Virus record (IMG/VR): IMGVR_UViG_2737471818_000009
Direction: 5' to 3' (one strand)
Source: a virus
Lineage: Duplodnaviria > Heunggongvirae > Uroviricota > Caudoviricetes
DNA length: 35,267 bases
Positions within the stretch are counted from its first letter, which is position 1. The number at the start of each line of letters is the position of its first letter. Positions 1 to 30,109 of the stretch are shown in pieces. The position numbers and the translations under genes were made by a program. The notes below the pieces were generated by a model. The model had not been told where the DNA came from. It did no database searches and saw only the letters and a program-made list of their open reading frames with translations.

Positions 1-278
1 GGTCATAACTCCTCATGTGTGTGGGGTGCTCAATGGCTCTCGTTATCTGGTTAAGTGTTTTGCAGCGCGGACATTTTATTTCAATGTAGTGAAATGAGGC
101 GCGGGCAAGTAGTTTGTTGCAATTTTTGCATCGTACATTTTGCGTCATTTGCGGCACCTCTTGTGTGGTTACTGCTGCCGATATGATAACAAATCGATCG
201 TTTTTATCGATCGGATTTATTGCATCGATCTGTCATGCCTATTGCTTACGAATAGTGTCACCCTCATTTGTGAGGGCA

Positions 279-322
279 ACAAAAAGAAAACCCGCAGTTT
301 TTACGCTGCGGGTTTGTTGTTC
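279..322. terminator. Rho-independent terminator candidate, bidirectional
   Basis: Stem cccgcag / ctgcggg (291..297 and 306..312) with 8-nt loop, A-rich run 279..291 on plus (T-run on minus) and tttgttgtt after it on plus; lies downstream of the minus-strand hok-like ORF. Confidence 0.4.
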
Positions 323-400
323 ATGTCTGTGAGATAGGGTGCCACTTCAGCCAACCTTAGCAACCGATTGACGGGGGATTACTCCCCCGTCGCGGTTTCC

Positions 401-541
401 TTACTGTTTACACTGTAAGAACGCCGCAAACTCCGCTCCCCAGAATCTCATCCGTATCTCGCACAGCGAACCGTGCAGCATCCAGATGATGAGGATTGCC
501 GTCACGCAGAACGTGATGGCTATAAGCGATTTTTGCGACAT
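401..541 (-). CDS. hok: Hok/Gef-family type I toxin (46 aa, below the ORF-track size cutoff)
   Basis: Hand translation: MSQKSLIAITFCVTAILIIWMLHGSLCEIRMRFWGAEFAAFLQCKQ; single TM segment followed by the Hok signature SLCEIR...E(F/V)AAF; ATG at 539..541 preceded by GGAG 8 nt upstream; perfect 9-bp hairpin at 370..391 just past the stop. Confidence 0.7.
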   Translation of the reverse strand: MSQKSLIAITFCVTAILIIWMLHGSLCEIRMRFWGAEFAAFLQCKQ

Positions 542-805
542 AGCACTTGCTCCTTTTTTTGCAAAGGCGCTAAGCTCTTGCCCGCTTATTGATTACGTTG
601 TGAAACGCCCAGAGTTGAACATAAGGTTTAGTTGGGCCTTTTTACATCTGGCCTTCGTGTTTGCTGTCCAGCCATCAGTCGAAAGGTGTCCGCGTGAATT
701 CTAGCCTGCTTTTTTTTCTTGCTTCAATACGTTGACTAATTTCAACACTCTGTTGTGCATATCCTGAACGCAGACATTATTCAATCACGCATTTGATACA
801 TGCTT

Positions 806-830
806 CCGCCGGCGTTCGCGCCGGTTTTTT
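806..830 (+). terminator. Rho-independent terminator candidate
   Basis: Stem ccggcg (809..814) / cgccgg (819..824), loop ttcg, followed by tttttt (825..830). Confidence 0.45.
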
Positions 831-1065
831 CGTCCTGTTGCTGCGTAGATCGTCATGTGCGATCGAGGTGCGGTATTGATCCTTTTTTCAGTTTAATTTT
901 GACTCTTAATTTTACGCAGGCTGCGCCGCGTCTGGCTTCGTTGTTTGATGGTTGTTTAATGTGATCCTTTCGTGATCGTTTTTCGTCTCGCGTAAAGTAT
1001 GAAAACTCTTTTAATATCATGCTGTTTTATTGCTCCTGCCATTTGCGTGATCGTAAAAACCTCTC

Positions 1066-1170
1066 TGAAAACTGAAAAAAATTTCAAAGCGTGAAATTTC
1101 AGATCTTCGCTTTTCCCTCAGTTGCTGCGCGGGCTGGCTGTCATTTTTGCACGGCAGAAAACTGAAAAAC
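1066..1170. repeat. Two direct copies of GAAAACTGAAAAA about 90 bp apart
   Basis: gaaaactgaaaaa at 1068..1080 and 1158..1170 in the noncoding left flank. Confidence 0.35.
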
Positions 1171-1211
1171 TGTTTCGACACAAAACCCGCGGGTTGGAGG
1201 GGGGAGCGCGG

Positions 1212-1254
1212 TTTACGTCACCTCATGCTTTACGTCACACCGTTTACGTGGTGT
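1212..1254. repeat. Three direct TTTACGT(C/G) repeats with an embedded inverted repeat
   Basis: tttacgtcac at 1212..1221 and 1229..1238, tttacgtggt at 1243..1252; cacacc / ggtgtg inverted repeat flanks the third copy; cccgcggg palindrome just upstream. Confidence 0.4.
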
Positions 1255-1307
1255 GCGTATACAGCGCCGGAATGGCACGCAGAACGCATTAATCAGGTGG
1301 CAGATAT

Positions 1308-1333
1308 GAAAACGCACGACCGGAGCCGTGCGT
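1308..1333 (-). terminator. Rho-independent terminator candidate at the end of the late tail operon
   Basis: Stem acgcacg (1312..1318) / cgtgcgt (1327..1333) with 8-nt loop, followed on the minus strand by TTTTC (plus-strand gaaaa 1308..1312); 43 nt downstream of the last late gene stop. Confidence 0.45.
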
Positions 1334-1375
1334 TGTGTGATGGGGCGTTTATGGGGGGGGCTTTATGCCCGGTGA

Positions 1376-3073
1376 TCAGGCGATAAGGTCACCGTATTTT
1401 TCGCGCAGGCTCGTAGCCTGTTGGGCGTCTGCGGCAAGTTCGCTGCTGTTTGTTGGTGCGCCAGTATTGCTATGGGTATGGTTTGCAGTGTGTGTGGCCA
1501 GCAACTGAACCAGATCCAGAATATCAATCAACAACGTCAGCAGATTAAGTCCGGATTTTTCCCGTGAGCCACCGCGCCCAATAAATACAGTCGGGGCGGT
1601 AAATTCCAGGCCGCCGTCCGCCCGGCATGTTCTGCGGCCTCCCACGTTTTCGGTGAGGTTATGCTCGATGGTGGATGTCGCCCCTTTGAGTTTAGTCAGC
1701 AAATCCTGCGCTACCATCTGGATATGCTCACCGGCTGCGATCGCATAATGGCCAGTAGTAATGTGTTCTGTCTGACCTGTCATCAGCTTGCTGGTTCCCA
1801 GAACGCTGGTTATGTCGTTTGCCTGTACTGTTGTTGTTCTGGTTGTTGTTGTGCGTTCTTCCTGATCGCTGTTAATGGTTCGCCTGGCTGAATGCTCCCT
1901 GATTTGCTGGTCGGTTTCTCTGTGCCAGCTTCCGTCAGTCGTGACACGCTGAAACACCTCTGCGCGCTGTTGTTGCAATTGTTCGCCGGGCTTTACATCA
2001 GGCAAGTTATGACCAGCGGGTAAAATTTGCCTGATAACAGGCTTATCTGGGCGTCCTTCAATGTTGGATATTTCCACGATGGTGCCTGCTGGCGGGTAGG
2101 CAAAACATCCCGCCTCACTGCCAGCCATGGGGACGGGGAGTGGTACTGCCGGGTAAACAGGCGTATCGTTTTTATCGTTGCCGTTCTCATCAAGCAACTG
2201 CACATCGACGGCGTAGCGTGGGCGGAAACTGTCGGCTACATCGCCCAGGGTGACGGATTCCGTTGGGGCAATGACGCGCGCCAGCCGGGTATGAAGAGTA
2301 CCGCTGGCCAGTTCCGGGAACTGTGTTTCCATTTGTCTGCGTAATGGTGATTTGGAAACAGGGCTACCCGTGGCGGTAAGGCGCTCCCATGTCAGGGTCA
2401 TTTTCTCGTTGTTGAGGGCTACACGGGTAATGCGCCCGGCGGGAAGATTCACGCCCGGTCGCACAGTTTCCATAAACATGATGTCGATGCTGTTTCCGCC
2501 GCTTTGCCCGAGTGTGTACTGTTGCGGAATATCCGGCATGGTAATACTGGCAAACCGTGAATCAGCTGCGCTCCCCACAAATACAGAACCGTCCGGCATA
2601 GGGTGCCAGACGTAATCGCTGATACTGAATGCTCGCCCCAGTTGGCTGAGCAGTTGTGCTCCGCTGCCGCTGTGGGTGATGTAGGGAGTTGGTATACCGG
2701 CATAATCCGCATCCGGAGTGATAAAAACGATACCGCTTTGTCGCCCCAGATTATCGAGTACCCCCCGCAGCGTCGGGTGTTGCATGGAGCAGGGGAAATC
2801 AAAATCCAGCACAGCAGCTGCTTCACGGATAAAAAGGCGACGTGAGCCATTTTCAGCAGGTTGATCGCGCTCAATATAGCCGGAGAAATAGCGCCATGCT
2901 TCACCGTCACGACCGAGATCAATTTGTACCATTGCGCCGGCAAGGCTGTGTTCGGGTGACAGATTGTTAACAGAAATGAAGCCACGACCGGCAGCATTCA
3001 GGGTAAGAACAAGGCTTATATCGGCAATTTCCACCCGTTCGCCATTAATCATGCAGCGTTGTATCAATTTCAT
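1376..3073 (-). CDS. Putative baseplate hub/spike-like tail protein (gpD/gp27-like N-terminal region, tentative), 565 aa
   Basis: Last gene of the late operon, ATGA-coupled to the upstream ORF; N-terminal segment (VQIDLGRDGEAWRYFSGYIER) resembles late-control-D/VgrG hub proteins; PAGTIVEISNIEGRPDKPVI resembles a gpV/gp5 OB-fold motif; assignment by eye only. Confidence 0.4.
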   Translation of the reverse strand: MKLIQRCMINGERVEIADISLVLTLNAAGRGFISVNNLSPEHSLAGAMVQIDLGRDGEAWRYFSGYIERDQPAENGSRRLFIREAAAVLDFDFPCSMQHPTLRGVLDNLGRQSGIVFITPDADYAGIPTPYITHSGSGAQLLSQLGRAFSISDYVWHPMPDGSVFVGSAADSRFASITMPDIPQQYTLGQSGGNSIDIMFMETVRPGVNLPAGRITRVALNNEKMTLTWERLTATGSPVSKSPLRRQMETQFPELASGTLHTRLARVIAPTESVTLGDVADSFRPRYAVDVQLLDENGNDKNDTPVYPAVPLPVPMAGSEAGCFAYPPAGTIVEISNIEGRPDKPVIRQILPAGHNLPDVKPGEQLQQQRAEVFQRVTTDGSWHRETDQQIREHSARRTINSDQEERTTTTRTTTVQANDITSVLGTSKLMTGQTEHITTGHYAIAAGEHIQMVAQDLLTKLKGATSTIEHNLTENVGGRRTCRADGGLEFTAPTVFIGRGGSREKSGLNLLTLLIDILDLVQLLATHTANHTHSNTGAPTNSSELAADAQQATSLREKYGDLIA

Positions 3074-29742: not shown

Positions 29743-29921
29743 GGTGTGGCCTCGTGTATAGTAAGTTTTGAAAACTCACCATCCAGAGGTGGAAAACTCG
29801 GGGTGGTGAGACGTACAGGGTTTCCACAACCGGCTATACACGAACCCGGCCCGACCGAAGTCGGCCCCATACGCCCCACCATAATTCTGACGCGAAAAAG
29901 ACGTGGCGATACGGTACGCAC

Positions 29922-29942
29922 AAAAAAACCGCTGGCGCGGTT
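29922..29942 (-). terminator. Rho-independent terminator candidate in the early region
   Basis: plus-strand aaaaaaa then accgc tggc gcggt; on the minus strand the hairpin is followed by a run of T. Confidence 0.35.
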
Positions 29943-30109
29943 GTGCGCGTGTATAGTCAGCGGGGTGGAAATCCCGGCACCCGTTTTATGAGGTGCAGCG
30001 GAAATGTAACCTGACTGATTGCGGCATGGCAAGCGGTTTTTTTGTGAGAACGGCATACTAAAAAATCCTGATGCTGCTCCGGCCAGCGGTTTCCACTGGC
30101 CGGGTTTAA

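What the first reader, a model, noticed from the sequence alone, without database searches (positions are those of the whole stretch)
270..830. Hok/Gef-family type I toxin ORF at the left flank; antisense RNA not located
A 46-aa minus-strand ORF (401..541), below the ORF-track size cutoff, has one TM helix followed by the Hok signature SLCEIR...EFAAFL and a GGAG RBS. A perfect 9-bp hairpin (370..391) and a terminator (291..312) follow it. Hok loci need a cis-encoded Sok antisense RNA and an overlapping mok frame; the expected Sok promoter in 560..760 could not be assigned by eye.
Basis: seen in the sequence. Interest (0 to 1): 0.55.

Follow-up and report, generated by a model that had tools for sequence, protein, structure and literature searches.

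The report
Prophage hok/sok-type toxin-antitoxin module
The small gene is a real, already catalogued member of the Hok family of membrane-killing peptides carried by an E. coli prophage; its missing antisense-RNA antidote can be placed by homology, so the finding is correct but ordinary, apart from an unusual rare variant of the regulatory leader.

Summary
A 46-aa ORF (401..541, minus strand) with a GGAG ribosome-binding site, the 9-bp hairpin (370..391) and the terminator (291..312) are all present. The ORF passes Pfam HOK_GEF (33.3 bits, cutoff 22) and PHROG 251. RefSeq annotates it "Hok/Gef family protein", about 1,500 of 5,426 complete E. coli genomes carry a related locus, and it falls in "cluster 72" of a 2026 Hok catalogue. 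By that paper's text, two near-identical peptides from the cluster were toxic.

Thirty-three relatives share a hok-type mRNA. It has 5'-3' end pairing with coupled covariation, a hairpin that hides the SD, and a stable 3' hairpin. It also has an antisense promoter at the position that matches R1's Psok in the Rfam alignment. In the window this promoter is -35 at 547..552 and -10 at 571..576. The predicted Sok-like RNA runs about 583..645 on the plus strand.

There is no mok frame here or in most relatives. The window carries a rare mosaic allele, found in 8 of 5,426 genomes. Its leader is so divergent that Rfam's model misses it, the end pairing is lost (-8.3 against -23 to -31 kcal/mol), and the Sok hairpin is weak. 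Whether this copy is active is open. The kind is known, so interest is low.

The parts
698..727 (-). Predicted hok mRNA promoter: -35 TTGAAG (727..722), 18-nt spacer, -10 TAGAAT (703..698). The predicted start is G691.
   Evidence: The consensus scan finds it. The -10 is conserved as TAGAAT/TAGATT/TAAATT at the same place in relatives. The scan alone is not significant: 2 sites found against 1.9 expected.
685..691 (-). 5' end element at the position of tac. It reads GGACACC where all 33 relatives in the alignment have GGGUGCC.
   Evidence: Alignment A4. In the end-pairing helix, the window is the only sequence with non-pairs at columns 32-34. The duplex with the 3' partner is -8.3 kcal/mol against -23 to -31 in relatives.
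649..674 (-). Leader hairpin P2: UGGCU at 674..670 pairs with GGCCA at 653..649.
   Evidence: RNAalifold and pair counts give 97.6% of cells paired. Many G-U pairs show it is an mRNA-sense structure.
607..637 (.). Hairpin P3. On the mRNA it lies in the Sok-target region. On the plus strand it is the body of the predicted Sok-like RNA (GCCCA 607..611 pairs with UGGGC 633..637) and is followed by C-UUUUU at 638..643.
   Evidence: The helix is conserved in 34 loci, 99% paired and Watson-Crick only. The window carries a compensatory C-G to A-U change. It aligns with the Sok hairpin region of R1 in the Rfam model.
547..576 (+). Predicted Sok-like promoter: -35 TTGCTC (547..552), 18-nt spacer, -10 TAAGCT (571..576).
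   Evidence: Positions T1, A2 and T6 of the -10 and TT of the -35 are invariant in 34/34 loci, while the middle of the -10 varies (ACC, TCC, AGC). In the Rfam RF01794 alignment this -10 falls on R1's TATCCT and the -35 on R1's TTGCGC. It matches the sigma-70 consensus at only 6/12, so the scan did not flag it.
583..645 (+). Predicted Sok-like antisense RNA of about 60 nt: a 5' single-stranded tail (583..606), a hairpin (607..637) and a U-run (639..643). It is complementary to the hok leader from -42 to -104.
   Evidence: The design matches R1 Sok and the predicted RNAs of relatives. In the window the fold is weak (-13.9 kcal/mol, z -1.2), against z -3.6 for P88, -2.7 for Salmonella and -3.8 for R1. 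There are no expression data.
541..572 (-). Hairpin that sequesters the SD: UAGCGC (572..567) pairs with GUGCUA (546..541) and encloses the SD GGAG (553..550).
   Evidence: Columns 155-159 pair with 181-185 in 99.4% of cells, with G-C to G-U changes only.
401..541 (-). hok-like toxin gene, 46 aa, with one N-terminal TM helix and two cysteines (C27, C44).
   Evidence: RefSeq WP_000078904.1 'Hok/Gef family protein' is annotated in a 99.8% identical locus.
421..430 (-). CDS segment UUUGCGGCGU, predicted to pair with the start-codon segment AUGUCGCAAA (541..532).
   Evidence: The helix at columns 187-202/295-310 is 99.8% paired, with one-sided G-U changes only and none compensatory. The sequence is also constrained by coding, so this evidence is weak.
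362..397 (-). Stable 3'-UTR hairpin. The outer stem is AACCG (397..393) with CGGUU (366..362).
   Evidence: Four pairs have compensatory changes and 99% of cells are paired. Its position matches the 3' stem-loop of truncated R1 hok mRNA described in PMC9841398.
337..352 (-). fbi-like 3' element: GGCUGAAGU-GGCACCC, with the core GGCACCC at 343..337.
   Evidence: It is the conserved partner of the 5' GGGUGCC in all relatives. The conserved module ends right after it, and the terminators beyond it differ between loci.
281..315 (-). Intrinsic terminator of the hok transcript.
   Evidence: One search reports the stem at 315..288 followed by UUUUCUUUUU. The same terminator is present in P88, Chuche and many IMG/VR prophages.

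Best explanation
Region 281..727 is a self-contained hok/sok-type type I toxin-antitoxin module of the 46-aa, HokA-like subfamily (PHROG 251; 'cluster 72'). It sits as a moron between the baseplate gene and the com/methyltransferase genes at the end of an E. coli prophage.

Shown: the toxin gene belongs to the Hok/Gef family. Across 33 related loci the mRNA has the hok architecture. The 5' end GGGUGCC... pairs with a 3' GGCACCC element. The same 5' bases can instead pair with a nearby leader segment, and these alternative pairings covary together. The SD and the AUG are each sequestered. A stable 3' hairpin precedes the 3' pairing element. An antisense promoter sits at the position homologous to R1's Psok.

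Inferred: the minus strand gives an mRNA of about 410 nt (G691 to about 283). The plus strand gives a Sok-like RNA of about 60 nt (about 583..645) from the promoter at 547..576. This RNA pairs with the leader 42-104 nt upstream of the hok AUG. It would trigger decay of the duplex, as RNase III does for R1, and/or keep the SD hairpin closed, so the toxin is made only when the antisense RNA falls.

No mok is involved. In relatives the relic of the mok SD (GAGGC) can pair with GCCUC, which is also the anti-SD of hok, and that would open the hok SD directly.

The window's copy is a rare mosaic allele. Its 3' half is 94-98% identical to relatives such as phage P88, while its leader and Sok region are only partly alignable. 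It cannot form the 5'-3' lock, so it would be under direct Sok control, if it is active at all.
For: Toxin: Pfam 33.3 bits against a cutoff of 22; PHROG 251 at 83 bits; 43% identity to HokA and 34% to Hok R1; RefSeq annotation. The cluster-72 peptides 72_1621 (2 aa different from the window) and 72_1589 were cloned for toxicity assays, and only three other peptides were reported non-toxic.

RNA architecture: the RNAalifold structure includes the end-pairing helix. 96.9% of cells are paired, against 35-47% when partners are slid, and 11 pairs carry compensatory changes (0/500 shuffles). The alternative tac-stem covaries at the same 5' columns 39-40. The tac/fbi duplex is -23 to -31 kcal/mol in all 33 relatives. 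The predicted closed-to-open refolding of P88 mRNA forms GAGGC/GCCUC.

Homology to R1: Rfam RF01794 scores 87.2 bits on R1, 47.9 on P88 and 38.3 on Salmonella, each across the full model.

Antisense promoter: T1, A2 and T6 of the -10 are invariant in 34/34 loci, with a TTG -35 and a 17-18 nt spacer. A Sok-like hairpin plus U-rich tail follows.

Window as homologue: the family model gives 62.9 bits, E 2.5e-17 at 539..696.

Autonomy: the module has its own promoter and terminator and occupies different positions in different elements. It follows ogr/gpD in P2-like prophages, follows lom in Stx phages, occurs on IncI1 plasmids, and forms chromosomal tandem arrays in Salmonella.
Against: No transcript data exist for either strand. 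The proposed Sok promoter matches the sigma-70 consensus at only 6/12, and part of its conservation could come from the overlapping mRNA hairpin.

In the window allele the 5'-3' lock is lost (-8.3 kcal/mol; 0.24 expected base pairs against 15.7 in P88). The open tac-stem is weakened, the Sok hairpin does not fold better than shuffled sequence (z -1.2), and Rfam's model finds nothing even in a 201-nt search at E up to 10.

In R1, substitutions at the equivalent tac bases (G4, C5, T6) abolish toxicity (PMC9841398). This copy could therefore be silent. The mok-independent opening mechanism is inference from folds, not a tested result.
Confidence: 0.6

Rival explanations
1. This copy is an inactivated or decaying hok locus. 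The toxin ORF is intact, but the regulatory leader is crippled. The tac element is mutated, the end pairing is lost and the Sok hairpin is weakened. The mRNA would then stay untranslatable and the antisense RNA would be dispensable or gone. On this reading the allele is a harmless passenger of the prophage.
For: Three adjacent substitutions in the 7-nt tac core, plus one in its extension, have no compensation on either partner. The R1 tac mutants G4A and T6C lose toxicity. The window's predicted SD accessibility does not change between full-length and truncated mRNA, whereas P88 switches from 0.0 to 0.24. The Sok fold has z -1.2. The allele is rare, in 8 of 5,426 genomes. From general knowledge, chromosomal hok loci are often inactive.
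Against: The ORF, the SD, the hok promoter hexamers, the TANNNT -10 of the antisense promoter, hairpin P3 (with a compensatory A-U pair) and a U5 tail are all intact. The divergence is confined to the 5' half with a sharp border near 577, while the 3' half is 94-98% identical to relatives such as P88. That pattern looks like recombination with a diverged functional homologue rather than in-place decay. The allele is 100% identical in several genomes and viral contigs.
Confidence: 0.3
2. The Hok-like peptide is not part of a toxin-antitoxin pair here. Only mRNA structure and phage transcription control it, and it serves as an accessory lysis or membrane-depolarising factor during prophage induction, with no antisense RNA.
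For: The SD and the AUG are both sequestered by conserved helices that could suffice for silencing. The hokW-sokW locus of prophage Sp5 aids lysis and phage release (PMC8621323). No consensus-quality plus-strand promoter was found.
Against: The positions that define a -10 box are invariant on the antisense strand and coincide with R1's Psok in the Rfam alignment. The most variable stretch of the leader is exactly the part that would form the Sok 5' tail, as expected for an antisense recognition region. Even hokW, which has the lysis role, is Sok-controlled.
Confidence: 0.07
3. The ORF is a chance open frame in an intergenic spacer.
For: It is only 46 codons long and below usual gene-calling cutoffs.
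Against: Pfam E 3.7e-8 and PHROG E 1.8e-23. Homologues with a conserved frame occur in Escherichia, Salmonella, Citrobacter and Klebsiella, with 14 invariant residues.
Confidence: 0.01

Closest known systems
hok/sok (parB) of plasmid R1, the paradigm type I toxin-antitoxin system
   Same: The toxin is a Hok/Gef-family peptide. A long structured leader begins with GGGUGC-like bases that pair with the 3' end (tac/fbi) or, alternatively, with a leader segment. A stable 3' hairpin lies ahead of the fbi element. The antisense promoter falls at the aligned position (-35 TTGC.C, -10 TA...T). The predicted Sok has the same design: a 5' tail, a GCCUCG...CGGGGC hairpin and a U-rich tail.
   Different: There is no mok. 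The AUG that follows the mok SD in R1 (AUAUG) reads AUAUC or other non-start triplets in this subfamily, and the window has lost even the SD relic. The toxin is 46 aa rather than 52, at 34% identity. The window allele lacks tac/fbi pairing. The locus is in a prophage, not on a plasmid.
Cluster 72 of the Hok catalogue of Escalera-Maurer et al. (bioRxiv 10.1101/2025.08.07.668861); PHROG 251 'MokW-like host killing'; RefSeq WP_000078904.1
   Same: This is the same peptide family. Peptide 72_1621 differs from the window peptide by 2 residues (T7I, S32R). The cluster is high-abundance and prophage-associated, and by the paper's text its representatives were toxic on induction.
   Different: That study analysed coding sequences only and explicitly left Sok, Mok and the mRNA ends unannotated. 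The window's leader allele is a rare variant, in 8 of 5,426 genomes.
hokA/sokA of the E. coli chromosome
   Same: HokA is the closest named toxin. The best NCBIfam model is HokA, identity is 43%, and both cysteines are encoded directly, so no RNA editing is needed (for the editing background).
   Different: The score is far below the HokA equivalog cutoff (35.8 against 89 bits), so the window gene is not an orthologue.
hokW/sokW of Stx2 prophage Sp5 (Takada et al. 2021, PMC8621323)
   Same: It is a prophage-borne hok/sok module shown to be a Sok-controlled type I TA that helps lysis after induction.
   Different: It is a different subfamily: HokW is 51 aa, starts MKQQKAM... and is HokD-like. 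Stx phages also carry a second hok near lom, and that one, not hokW, is the homologue of the window locus at 77.5% DNA identity.

Membership tests
Hok/Gef toxin family (Pfam PF01848) | The profile HMM match exceeds the curated gathering score. | tested here: met
   33.3 bits against a cutoff of 22, E 3.7e-8, residues 6-44 on profile positions 4-42 of 42. PHROG 251 gives 83.2 bits over the full length.
Hok/Gef toxin family (Pfam PF01848) | A peptide of about 50 aa with an N-terminal TM helix and the residues conserved in more than 80% of Hok peptides (M1, C16, T18, L30, C31, E32, E41 of the logo). | tested here: met
   M1, C12, T14, L26, C27, E28 and E37 occupy those columns in the published alignments, which contain cluster-72 peptides, and in the BLASTP alignments. 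C27, E28 and E37 are invariant across 19 subfamily members.
Hok/Gef toxin family (Pfam PF01848) | The peptide is toxic (membrane damage) when expressed. | not testable with these tools
   Peptides 72_1621 (2 aa different) and 72_1589 were among 45 tested. Only 19_179, 60_1482 and 69_1540 were reported non-toxic. This is a preprint, and the window's own peptide was not tested.
HokA equivalog (NCBIfam NF007290) | The score reaches the equivalog cutoff. | tested here: not met
   35.8 bits against a cutoff of 89. The Hok subfamily model NF007279 gives 25.2 against 73. The gene is a distinct subfamily, not HokA.
hok/sok type I TA locus (R1 paradigm) | A cis-encoded antisense RNA (Sok) is transcribed from a promoter overlapping the hok SD region and is complementary to the leader. 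| tested here: inconclusive
   A promoter-like element at 547..576 (+) has -10 positions T1/A2/T6 invariant in 34/34 loci and aligns with R1's Psok. A hairpin plus U-run follows at 607..643. The consensus match is weak (6/12; not flagged), the window's RNA fold is not significant, and there are no expression data.
hok/sok type I TA locus (R1 paradigm) | An overlapping mok reading frame is translationally coupled to hok. | tested here: not met
   The window has no other minus-strand ORF of 20 aa or more overlapping hok. Its only leader ORFs are unconserved 9- and 15-codon frames without an SD. A long overlapping frame is open in only 12 of 34 representative loci and absent from P88, Stx-phage, Salmonella and Klebsiella copies. 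R1's mok AUG is not conserved in the Rfam alignment.
hok/sok type I TA locus (R1 paradigm) | Pairing between the 5' end (tac) and the 3' end (fbi) locks the full-length mRNA. | tested here: not met
   The window scores -8.3 kcal/mol, with 3 non-pairs in the 7-bp core and 0.24 expected base pairs. The feature is met in all 33 relatives (-23 to -31 kcal/mol; compensatory changes at 4 pairs).
hok/sok type I TA locus (R1 paradigm) | The leader matches the curated covariance model (Rfam RF01794 'sok', which models the hok leader strand). | tested here: not met
   The window gives no match at E up to 10 in 1,400-nt and 201-nt searches. The R1 positive control scores 87.2 bits. Relatives score 47.9 and 38.3 bits, below the gathering score of 59. 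A model built from 23 relatives does find the window leader at 62.9 bits, E 2.5e-17, against 139-179 bits for members.
hok/sok type I TA locus (R1 paradigm) | A stable stem-loop forms the 3' end of the processed mRNA, upstream of fbi. | tested here: met
   The hairpin at 397..362 (inner stem 391..370) is 99% paired across 34 loci, with 4 compensatory pairs. That it acts as a processing stop is inferred.
hok/sok type I TA locus (R1 paradigm) | 3' processing activates the mRNA, and RNase III degrades the Sok-mRNA duplex. | not testable with these tools
   This needs Northern blots or RACE in wild-type and rnc backgrounds.

The most novel reading that the evidence does not exclude
The window carries a natural 'unlocked', mok-less hok/sok allele. 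Recombination at the Sok promoter (near 577) would have swapped in a whole diverged cassette holding the hok promoter, the tac element, and the Sok gene with its target. The result would be a module with a new, orthogonal antitoxin specificity that works without mRNA end pairing and without 3'-processing-dependent activation. If so, Sok/target cassettes are exchanged as units, so that the several hok copies in one cell (up to 4 per genome) do not cross-protect. It would also mean the end-pairing lock is dispensable for a prophage-borne hok.
Probability: 0.2. Interest if true: 0.45.

Novelty: already known. Interest (0 to 1): 0.22.

Why it matters
The finding adds one more prophage-borne Hok toxin. 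This peptide family is already annotated by RefSeq and PHROGs and included in a published catalogue, with close relatives tested for toxicity. The analysis adds a concrete map of the RNA side of this abundant subfamily. It places the likely Sok gene, shows that the hok folding pathway (end pairing with coupled covariation) is kept, and shows that mok is not. It also shows that a rare allele has lost the end pairing. These points give type I toxin-antitoxin researchers directly testable coordinates, but they do not change how such systems are understood.

Tried and rejected
- **Rfam on the window:** all 35 kb at gathering thresholds, 1..1400 and 520..720 at E up to 10, gave nothing for sok or hok. 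The negative reflects the divergent allele, because relatives and the R1 control do match.
- **Consensus promoter scan:** it found no plus-strand site of 9/12 or better in 1..1500. The Sok promoter therefore rests on homology and conservation, not consensus strength.
- **Metagenome scan with the 14-mer GCGGACACCTTTCG:** this was meant to find a donor lineage whose 3' partner matches the window's tac. The viral-contig scan with a 22-mer found only the same allele.
- **Alternative partners for the window's 5' end:** the best duplexes anywhere in the mRNA are -10 to -15 kcal/mol and lie in the CDS. A predicted leader-3'UTR pairing (about 10 expected base pairs) did not score better than shuffled leaders.
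- **Leader uORFs as mok substitutes:** frames of 15 codons (ATG at 675) and 9 codons (ATG at 622) have no SD and are not conserved.
- **PADLOC:** no defence-system model matches.
- **LexA box:** reading the sequence around the locus showed no CTGT-N8-ACAG box.
- **hokW/sokW (Takada 2021):** rejected as the same locus, because it belongs to a different subfamily.
- **HokST of Salmonella pCol1B9:** the published coordinates span 153 nt, against 141 nt for the window ORF. It was not followed up.
- **T1TAdb membership of cluster 72:** this could not be settled. Characteristic strings are absent from the seed alignment in the preprint's supplement, but gaps in that file make the result weak.
Full report
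**1. Checking the observation**

The minus strand of 401..541 encodes MSQKSLIAITFCVTAILIIWMLHGSLCEIRMRFWGAEFAAFLQCKQ. GGAG lies at 553..550, 8 nt before the ATG. The in-frame stop upstream (595..593) leaves no earlier start codon.

The 9-bp hairpin is GACGGGGGA-GUAA-UCCCCCGUC at 391..370. The terminator has its stem within 315..288 and a T-run at 290..281.

The ORF passes Pfam HOK_GEF (33.3 bits, gathering score 22, E 3.7e-8). It matches PHROG 251 'MokW-like host killing' over its full length (83.2 bits). NCBIfam's HokA and Hok models hit well below their cutoffs (35.8 against 89 and 25.2 against 73). It is therefore a Hok-family peptide but not an orthologue of a named K-12 Hok. BLASTP gives 43% identity to HokA and 34% to Hok of R1.

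**2. Genomic setting and how common the locus is**

The window is an E. coli prophage. On the minus strand a baseplate gene (1376..3073; PHROG 2258) lies upstream of hok. A Com-like ORF (ATG at 148) lies downstream, followed in related genomes by a DNA methyltransferase.

A 99.8% identical locus in E. coli ECL27977 lies at the prophage end next to raiA. Its ORF is annotated 'Hok/Gef family protein' (WP_000078904.1). Related loci occur in 1,541 of 5,426 complete E. coli genomes.

The module turns up in several settings:
- P2-like phages such as P88 (94.6% identity over 281..576) and phage Chuche.
- Next to lom in Stx phages such as 933W and Sp5 (77.5% identity).
- On IncI1 and other plasmids.
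- In Salmonella, Citrobacter, Klebsiella and E. albertii.
- In Salmonella chromosomes as tandem arrays of two or three copies.

It carries its own promoter and terminator and sits at different positions in different elements. That is the behaviour of a moron.

**3. What the literature already covers**

The Hok catalogue of Escalera-Maurer et al. (bioRxiv 10.1101/2025.08.07.668861) contains this peptide family as its 60%-identity cluster 72, a high-abundance cluster. Peptide 72_1621 differs from the window peptide by two residues. It and 72_1589 (the Stx-phage type) were cloned for toxicity assays (Table S2). The text names only three other peptides as non-toxic out of 45 tested.

The authors state that they did not annotate Sok, Mok or the mRNA ends. 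The hokW/sokW system of prophage Sp5 (PMC8621323) is a different, HokD-like 51-aa locus. Stx phages therefore carry two unrelated hok modules.

**4. RNA architecture of the subfamily**

I aligned 34 non-redundant loci from promoter to terminator (A4). RNAalifold predicts the following helices:
- A long-range helix between the 5' end (GGGUGCC plus an extension) and a 3' element (GGCACCC plus an extension).
- Two leader hairpins, P2 and P3.
- A hairpin that encloses the hok SD.
- A helix between the start-codon segment and codons 38-41.

On this structure 96.9% of cells are standard pairs, against 35-47% when partners are slid by 1-3 columns. Eleven pairs show compensatory changes (0 of 500 shuffles).

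The 5' bases can instead pair with a leader segment (GCCUUUC with GAAAGGC). This alternative helix covaries at the same 5' columns (39 and 40) as the end-pairing helix. Such coupled covariation of mutually exclusive helices is, as I recall it, the hallmark described for the hok mRNA family.

The conserved module ends immediately after GGCACCC, and the terminators beyond it differ between loci. In all 33 relatives the end-pairing duplex is worth -23 to -31 kcal/mol.

Folding P88's full-length and 3'-truncated mRNAs reproduces the R1 logic summarised in PMC9841398. The full-length RNA is closed by end pairing. In the truncated RNA the tac-stem forms and GAGGC pairs with GCCUC. The predicted probability that the hok SD is unpaired rises from 0.0 to 0.24.

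**5. Homology to R1 and the location of Sok**

Rfam's RF01794 ('sok') actually models the hok leader on the sense strand, from GGGUGC to the hok AUG. It scores 87.2 bits on an R1-type plasmid locus. It aligns end to end with P88 (47.9 bits, E 4e-10) and with a Salmonella copy (38.3 bits). Both are below the gathering score of 59.

In that alignment the subfamily's CCGAGGCC falls on R1's mok SD. R1's mok start (AUAUG) corresponds to AUAUC in P88.

On the antisense strand, R1 has TTGCGC, a 17-nt spacer and TATCCT. I know this as the Sok promoter from the R1 literature, and the hexamers themselves are read. It aligns with TTGCTC, a 17-nt spacer and TAACCT in the subfamily, with TATCCT in some Salmonella copies.

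Across the 34 loci the -10 positions T1, A2 and T6 are invariant while the three middle positions vary. That is the TANNNT pattern cited in PMC9841398.

In the window the element is TTGCTC (547..552), an 18-nt spacer and TAAGCT (571..576). A transcript starting near 580..584 would have three parts: a single-stranded tail, the antisense of hairpin P3 (607..637), and C-UUUUU (638..643). At about 60 nt it has the same design as R1 Sok.

The stretch that would form the Sok 5' tail is the most variable part of the leader among relatives. This fits an antisense recognition region that diversifies to avoid cross-talk. All of this rests on homology and conservation. No expression data were available.

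**6. mok**

The window has no second minus-strand frame of 20 aa or more over hok. A long frame overlapping hok is open in only 12 of 34 representative loci. It starts from leader AUGs upstream of P3, not at the R1 position. It is closed in P88, Chuche, Stx-phage, Salmonella and Klebsiella copies. mok is therefore not a conserved part of this subfamily.

A plausible mok-free route to activation follows from the folds. GCCUC, the partner of the SD relic GAGGC, is also the anti-SD that hides hok's own GGAG. This step is inference.

**7. The window's allele is atypical**

By segment, the 3' UTR is 118/120 identical to P88 and the SD-plus-CDS segment is 166/176 identical to its best relative. Only 93 of the 123 leader bases (577..699) can be aligned to any relative, at 74/93 identity. 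The 91 bases upstream are 78% identical. The allele is a mosaic with a border near 577, just past the Sok -10.

The leader allele occurs at 99% identity or more in 8 of 5,426 E. coli genomes. The next best matches are 75-81% identical. It is also in three IMG/VR contigs.

The differences from the subfamily are these:
- The 5' core reads GGACACC instead of GGGUGCC, with one more change in the extension, and nothing compensates in either partner.
- The end-pairing duplex falls to -8.3 kcal/mol. The ensemble shows 0.24 expected base pairs between the 5' end and the 3' tail, against 15.7 in P88.
- P3 survives with one compensatory A-U pair but is shorter, and the SD relic is gone.
- The predicted Sok-like RNA does not fold better than shuffled sequence (z -1.2, against -2.7 to -3.8 for relatives and R1).
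- Rfam finds nothing. A covariance model built from 23 relatives still recognises the leader (62.9 bits, E 2.5e-17, against 139-179 bits for members).

In R1, substitutions at the equivalent tac bases abolish toxicity. The allele may therefore be a silent copy. Against that, the sharp mosaic border and the intact ORF, SD, both promoters and the U-run fit a functional diverged cassette brought in by recombination. I cannot decide between these readings with sequence alone.

**8. Verdict**

The locus is an ordinary, already annotated and catalogued hok/sok-type module. The missing Sok can be placed at 547..645 on the plus strand by homology. mok is absent. The only unusual point is the rare leader allele that has lost the 5'-3' lock.

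Noticed in passing
window 183..230 (GATC at 196, 209, 227); com-like ORF from 148 to the left end, minus strand: Three GATC sites within 35 bp lie just upstream of a Com-like gene (PHROG gpCom) that precedes a DNA methyltransferase in related prophages. A promoter-like site (TCGATA-16-TATCAT, 210..183) overlaps them. As I recall, this resembles the Dam/OxyR-controlled mom operator of phage Mu.
   Followed up: partly
window 730..1375: A spacer of about 650 nt lies between the baseplate gene and the hok promoter. It has no convincing ORF and no annotation in the near-identical RefSeq genome. It contains 7 GATC sites (848..1105). P2-like relatives have an ogr/Delta gene at this position instead.
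   Followed up: no
window 808..831, plus strand: A strong terminator-like hairpin (GCCGGCG-TTCG-CGCCGGT followed by T6) has no plus-strand gene upstream other than the predicted Sok-like RNA. It could stop antisense read-through towards the tail genes.
   Followed up: no
window 29799..29886 (-) and 29922..29996 (-): Rfam finds a C4 antisense RNA (77.3 bits) and an isrK Hfq-binding RNA (63.5 bits) next to each other, both above their gathering scores. This is presumably the prophage's immunity/antirepressor control region.
   Followed up: no
L098 1501..2987, L099 1501..2643, L100 1501..2145 (Salmonella enterica chromosomes): Two or three copies of the 46-aa hok module occur in tandem, each with its own leader variant. 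From memory, this is like the repeated ldr/rdl and ibs/sib type I loci of E. coli.
   Followed up: partly
IMG/VR loci such as L016, L017, L020, L038 (leader -130 to hok +83/+134): In about a third of representative E. coli copies a 61-87-codon frame runs from a leader AUG through most of hok in the -1 frame. It is mok-like in layout but starts at a different place from R1 mok and is not conserved elsewhere. It may be chance or a lineage-specific mok.
   Followed up: partly
Rfam RF01794 on L109 182..353 (+): The Rfam family named 'sok antitoxin' matches the strand that encodes hok. It covers the leader from the mRNA 5' end to the hok AUG, so a hit reports the hok leader rather than the orientation of Sok.
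   Followed up: yes
L094 1795..1992 (-): The Salmonella sRNA STnc540 (171.6 bits) lies immediately downstream of a hok copy at the end of a P2-like prophage, next to the host's HU-like DNA-binding (PF00216) and pheT-type genes.
   Followed up: no
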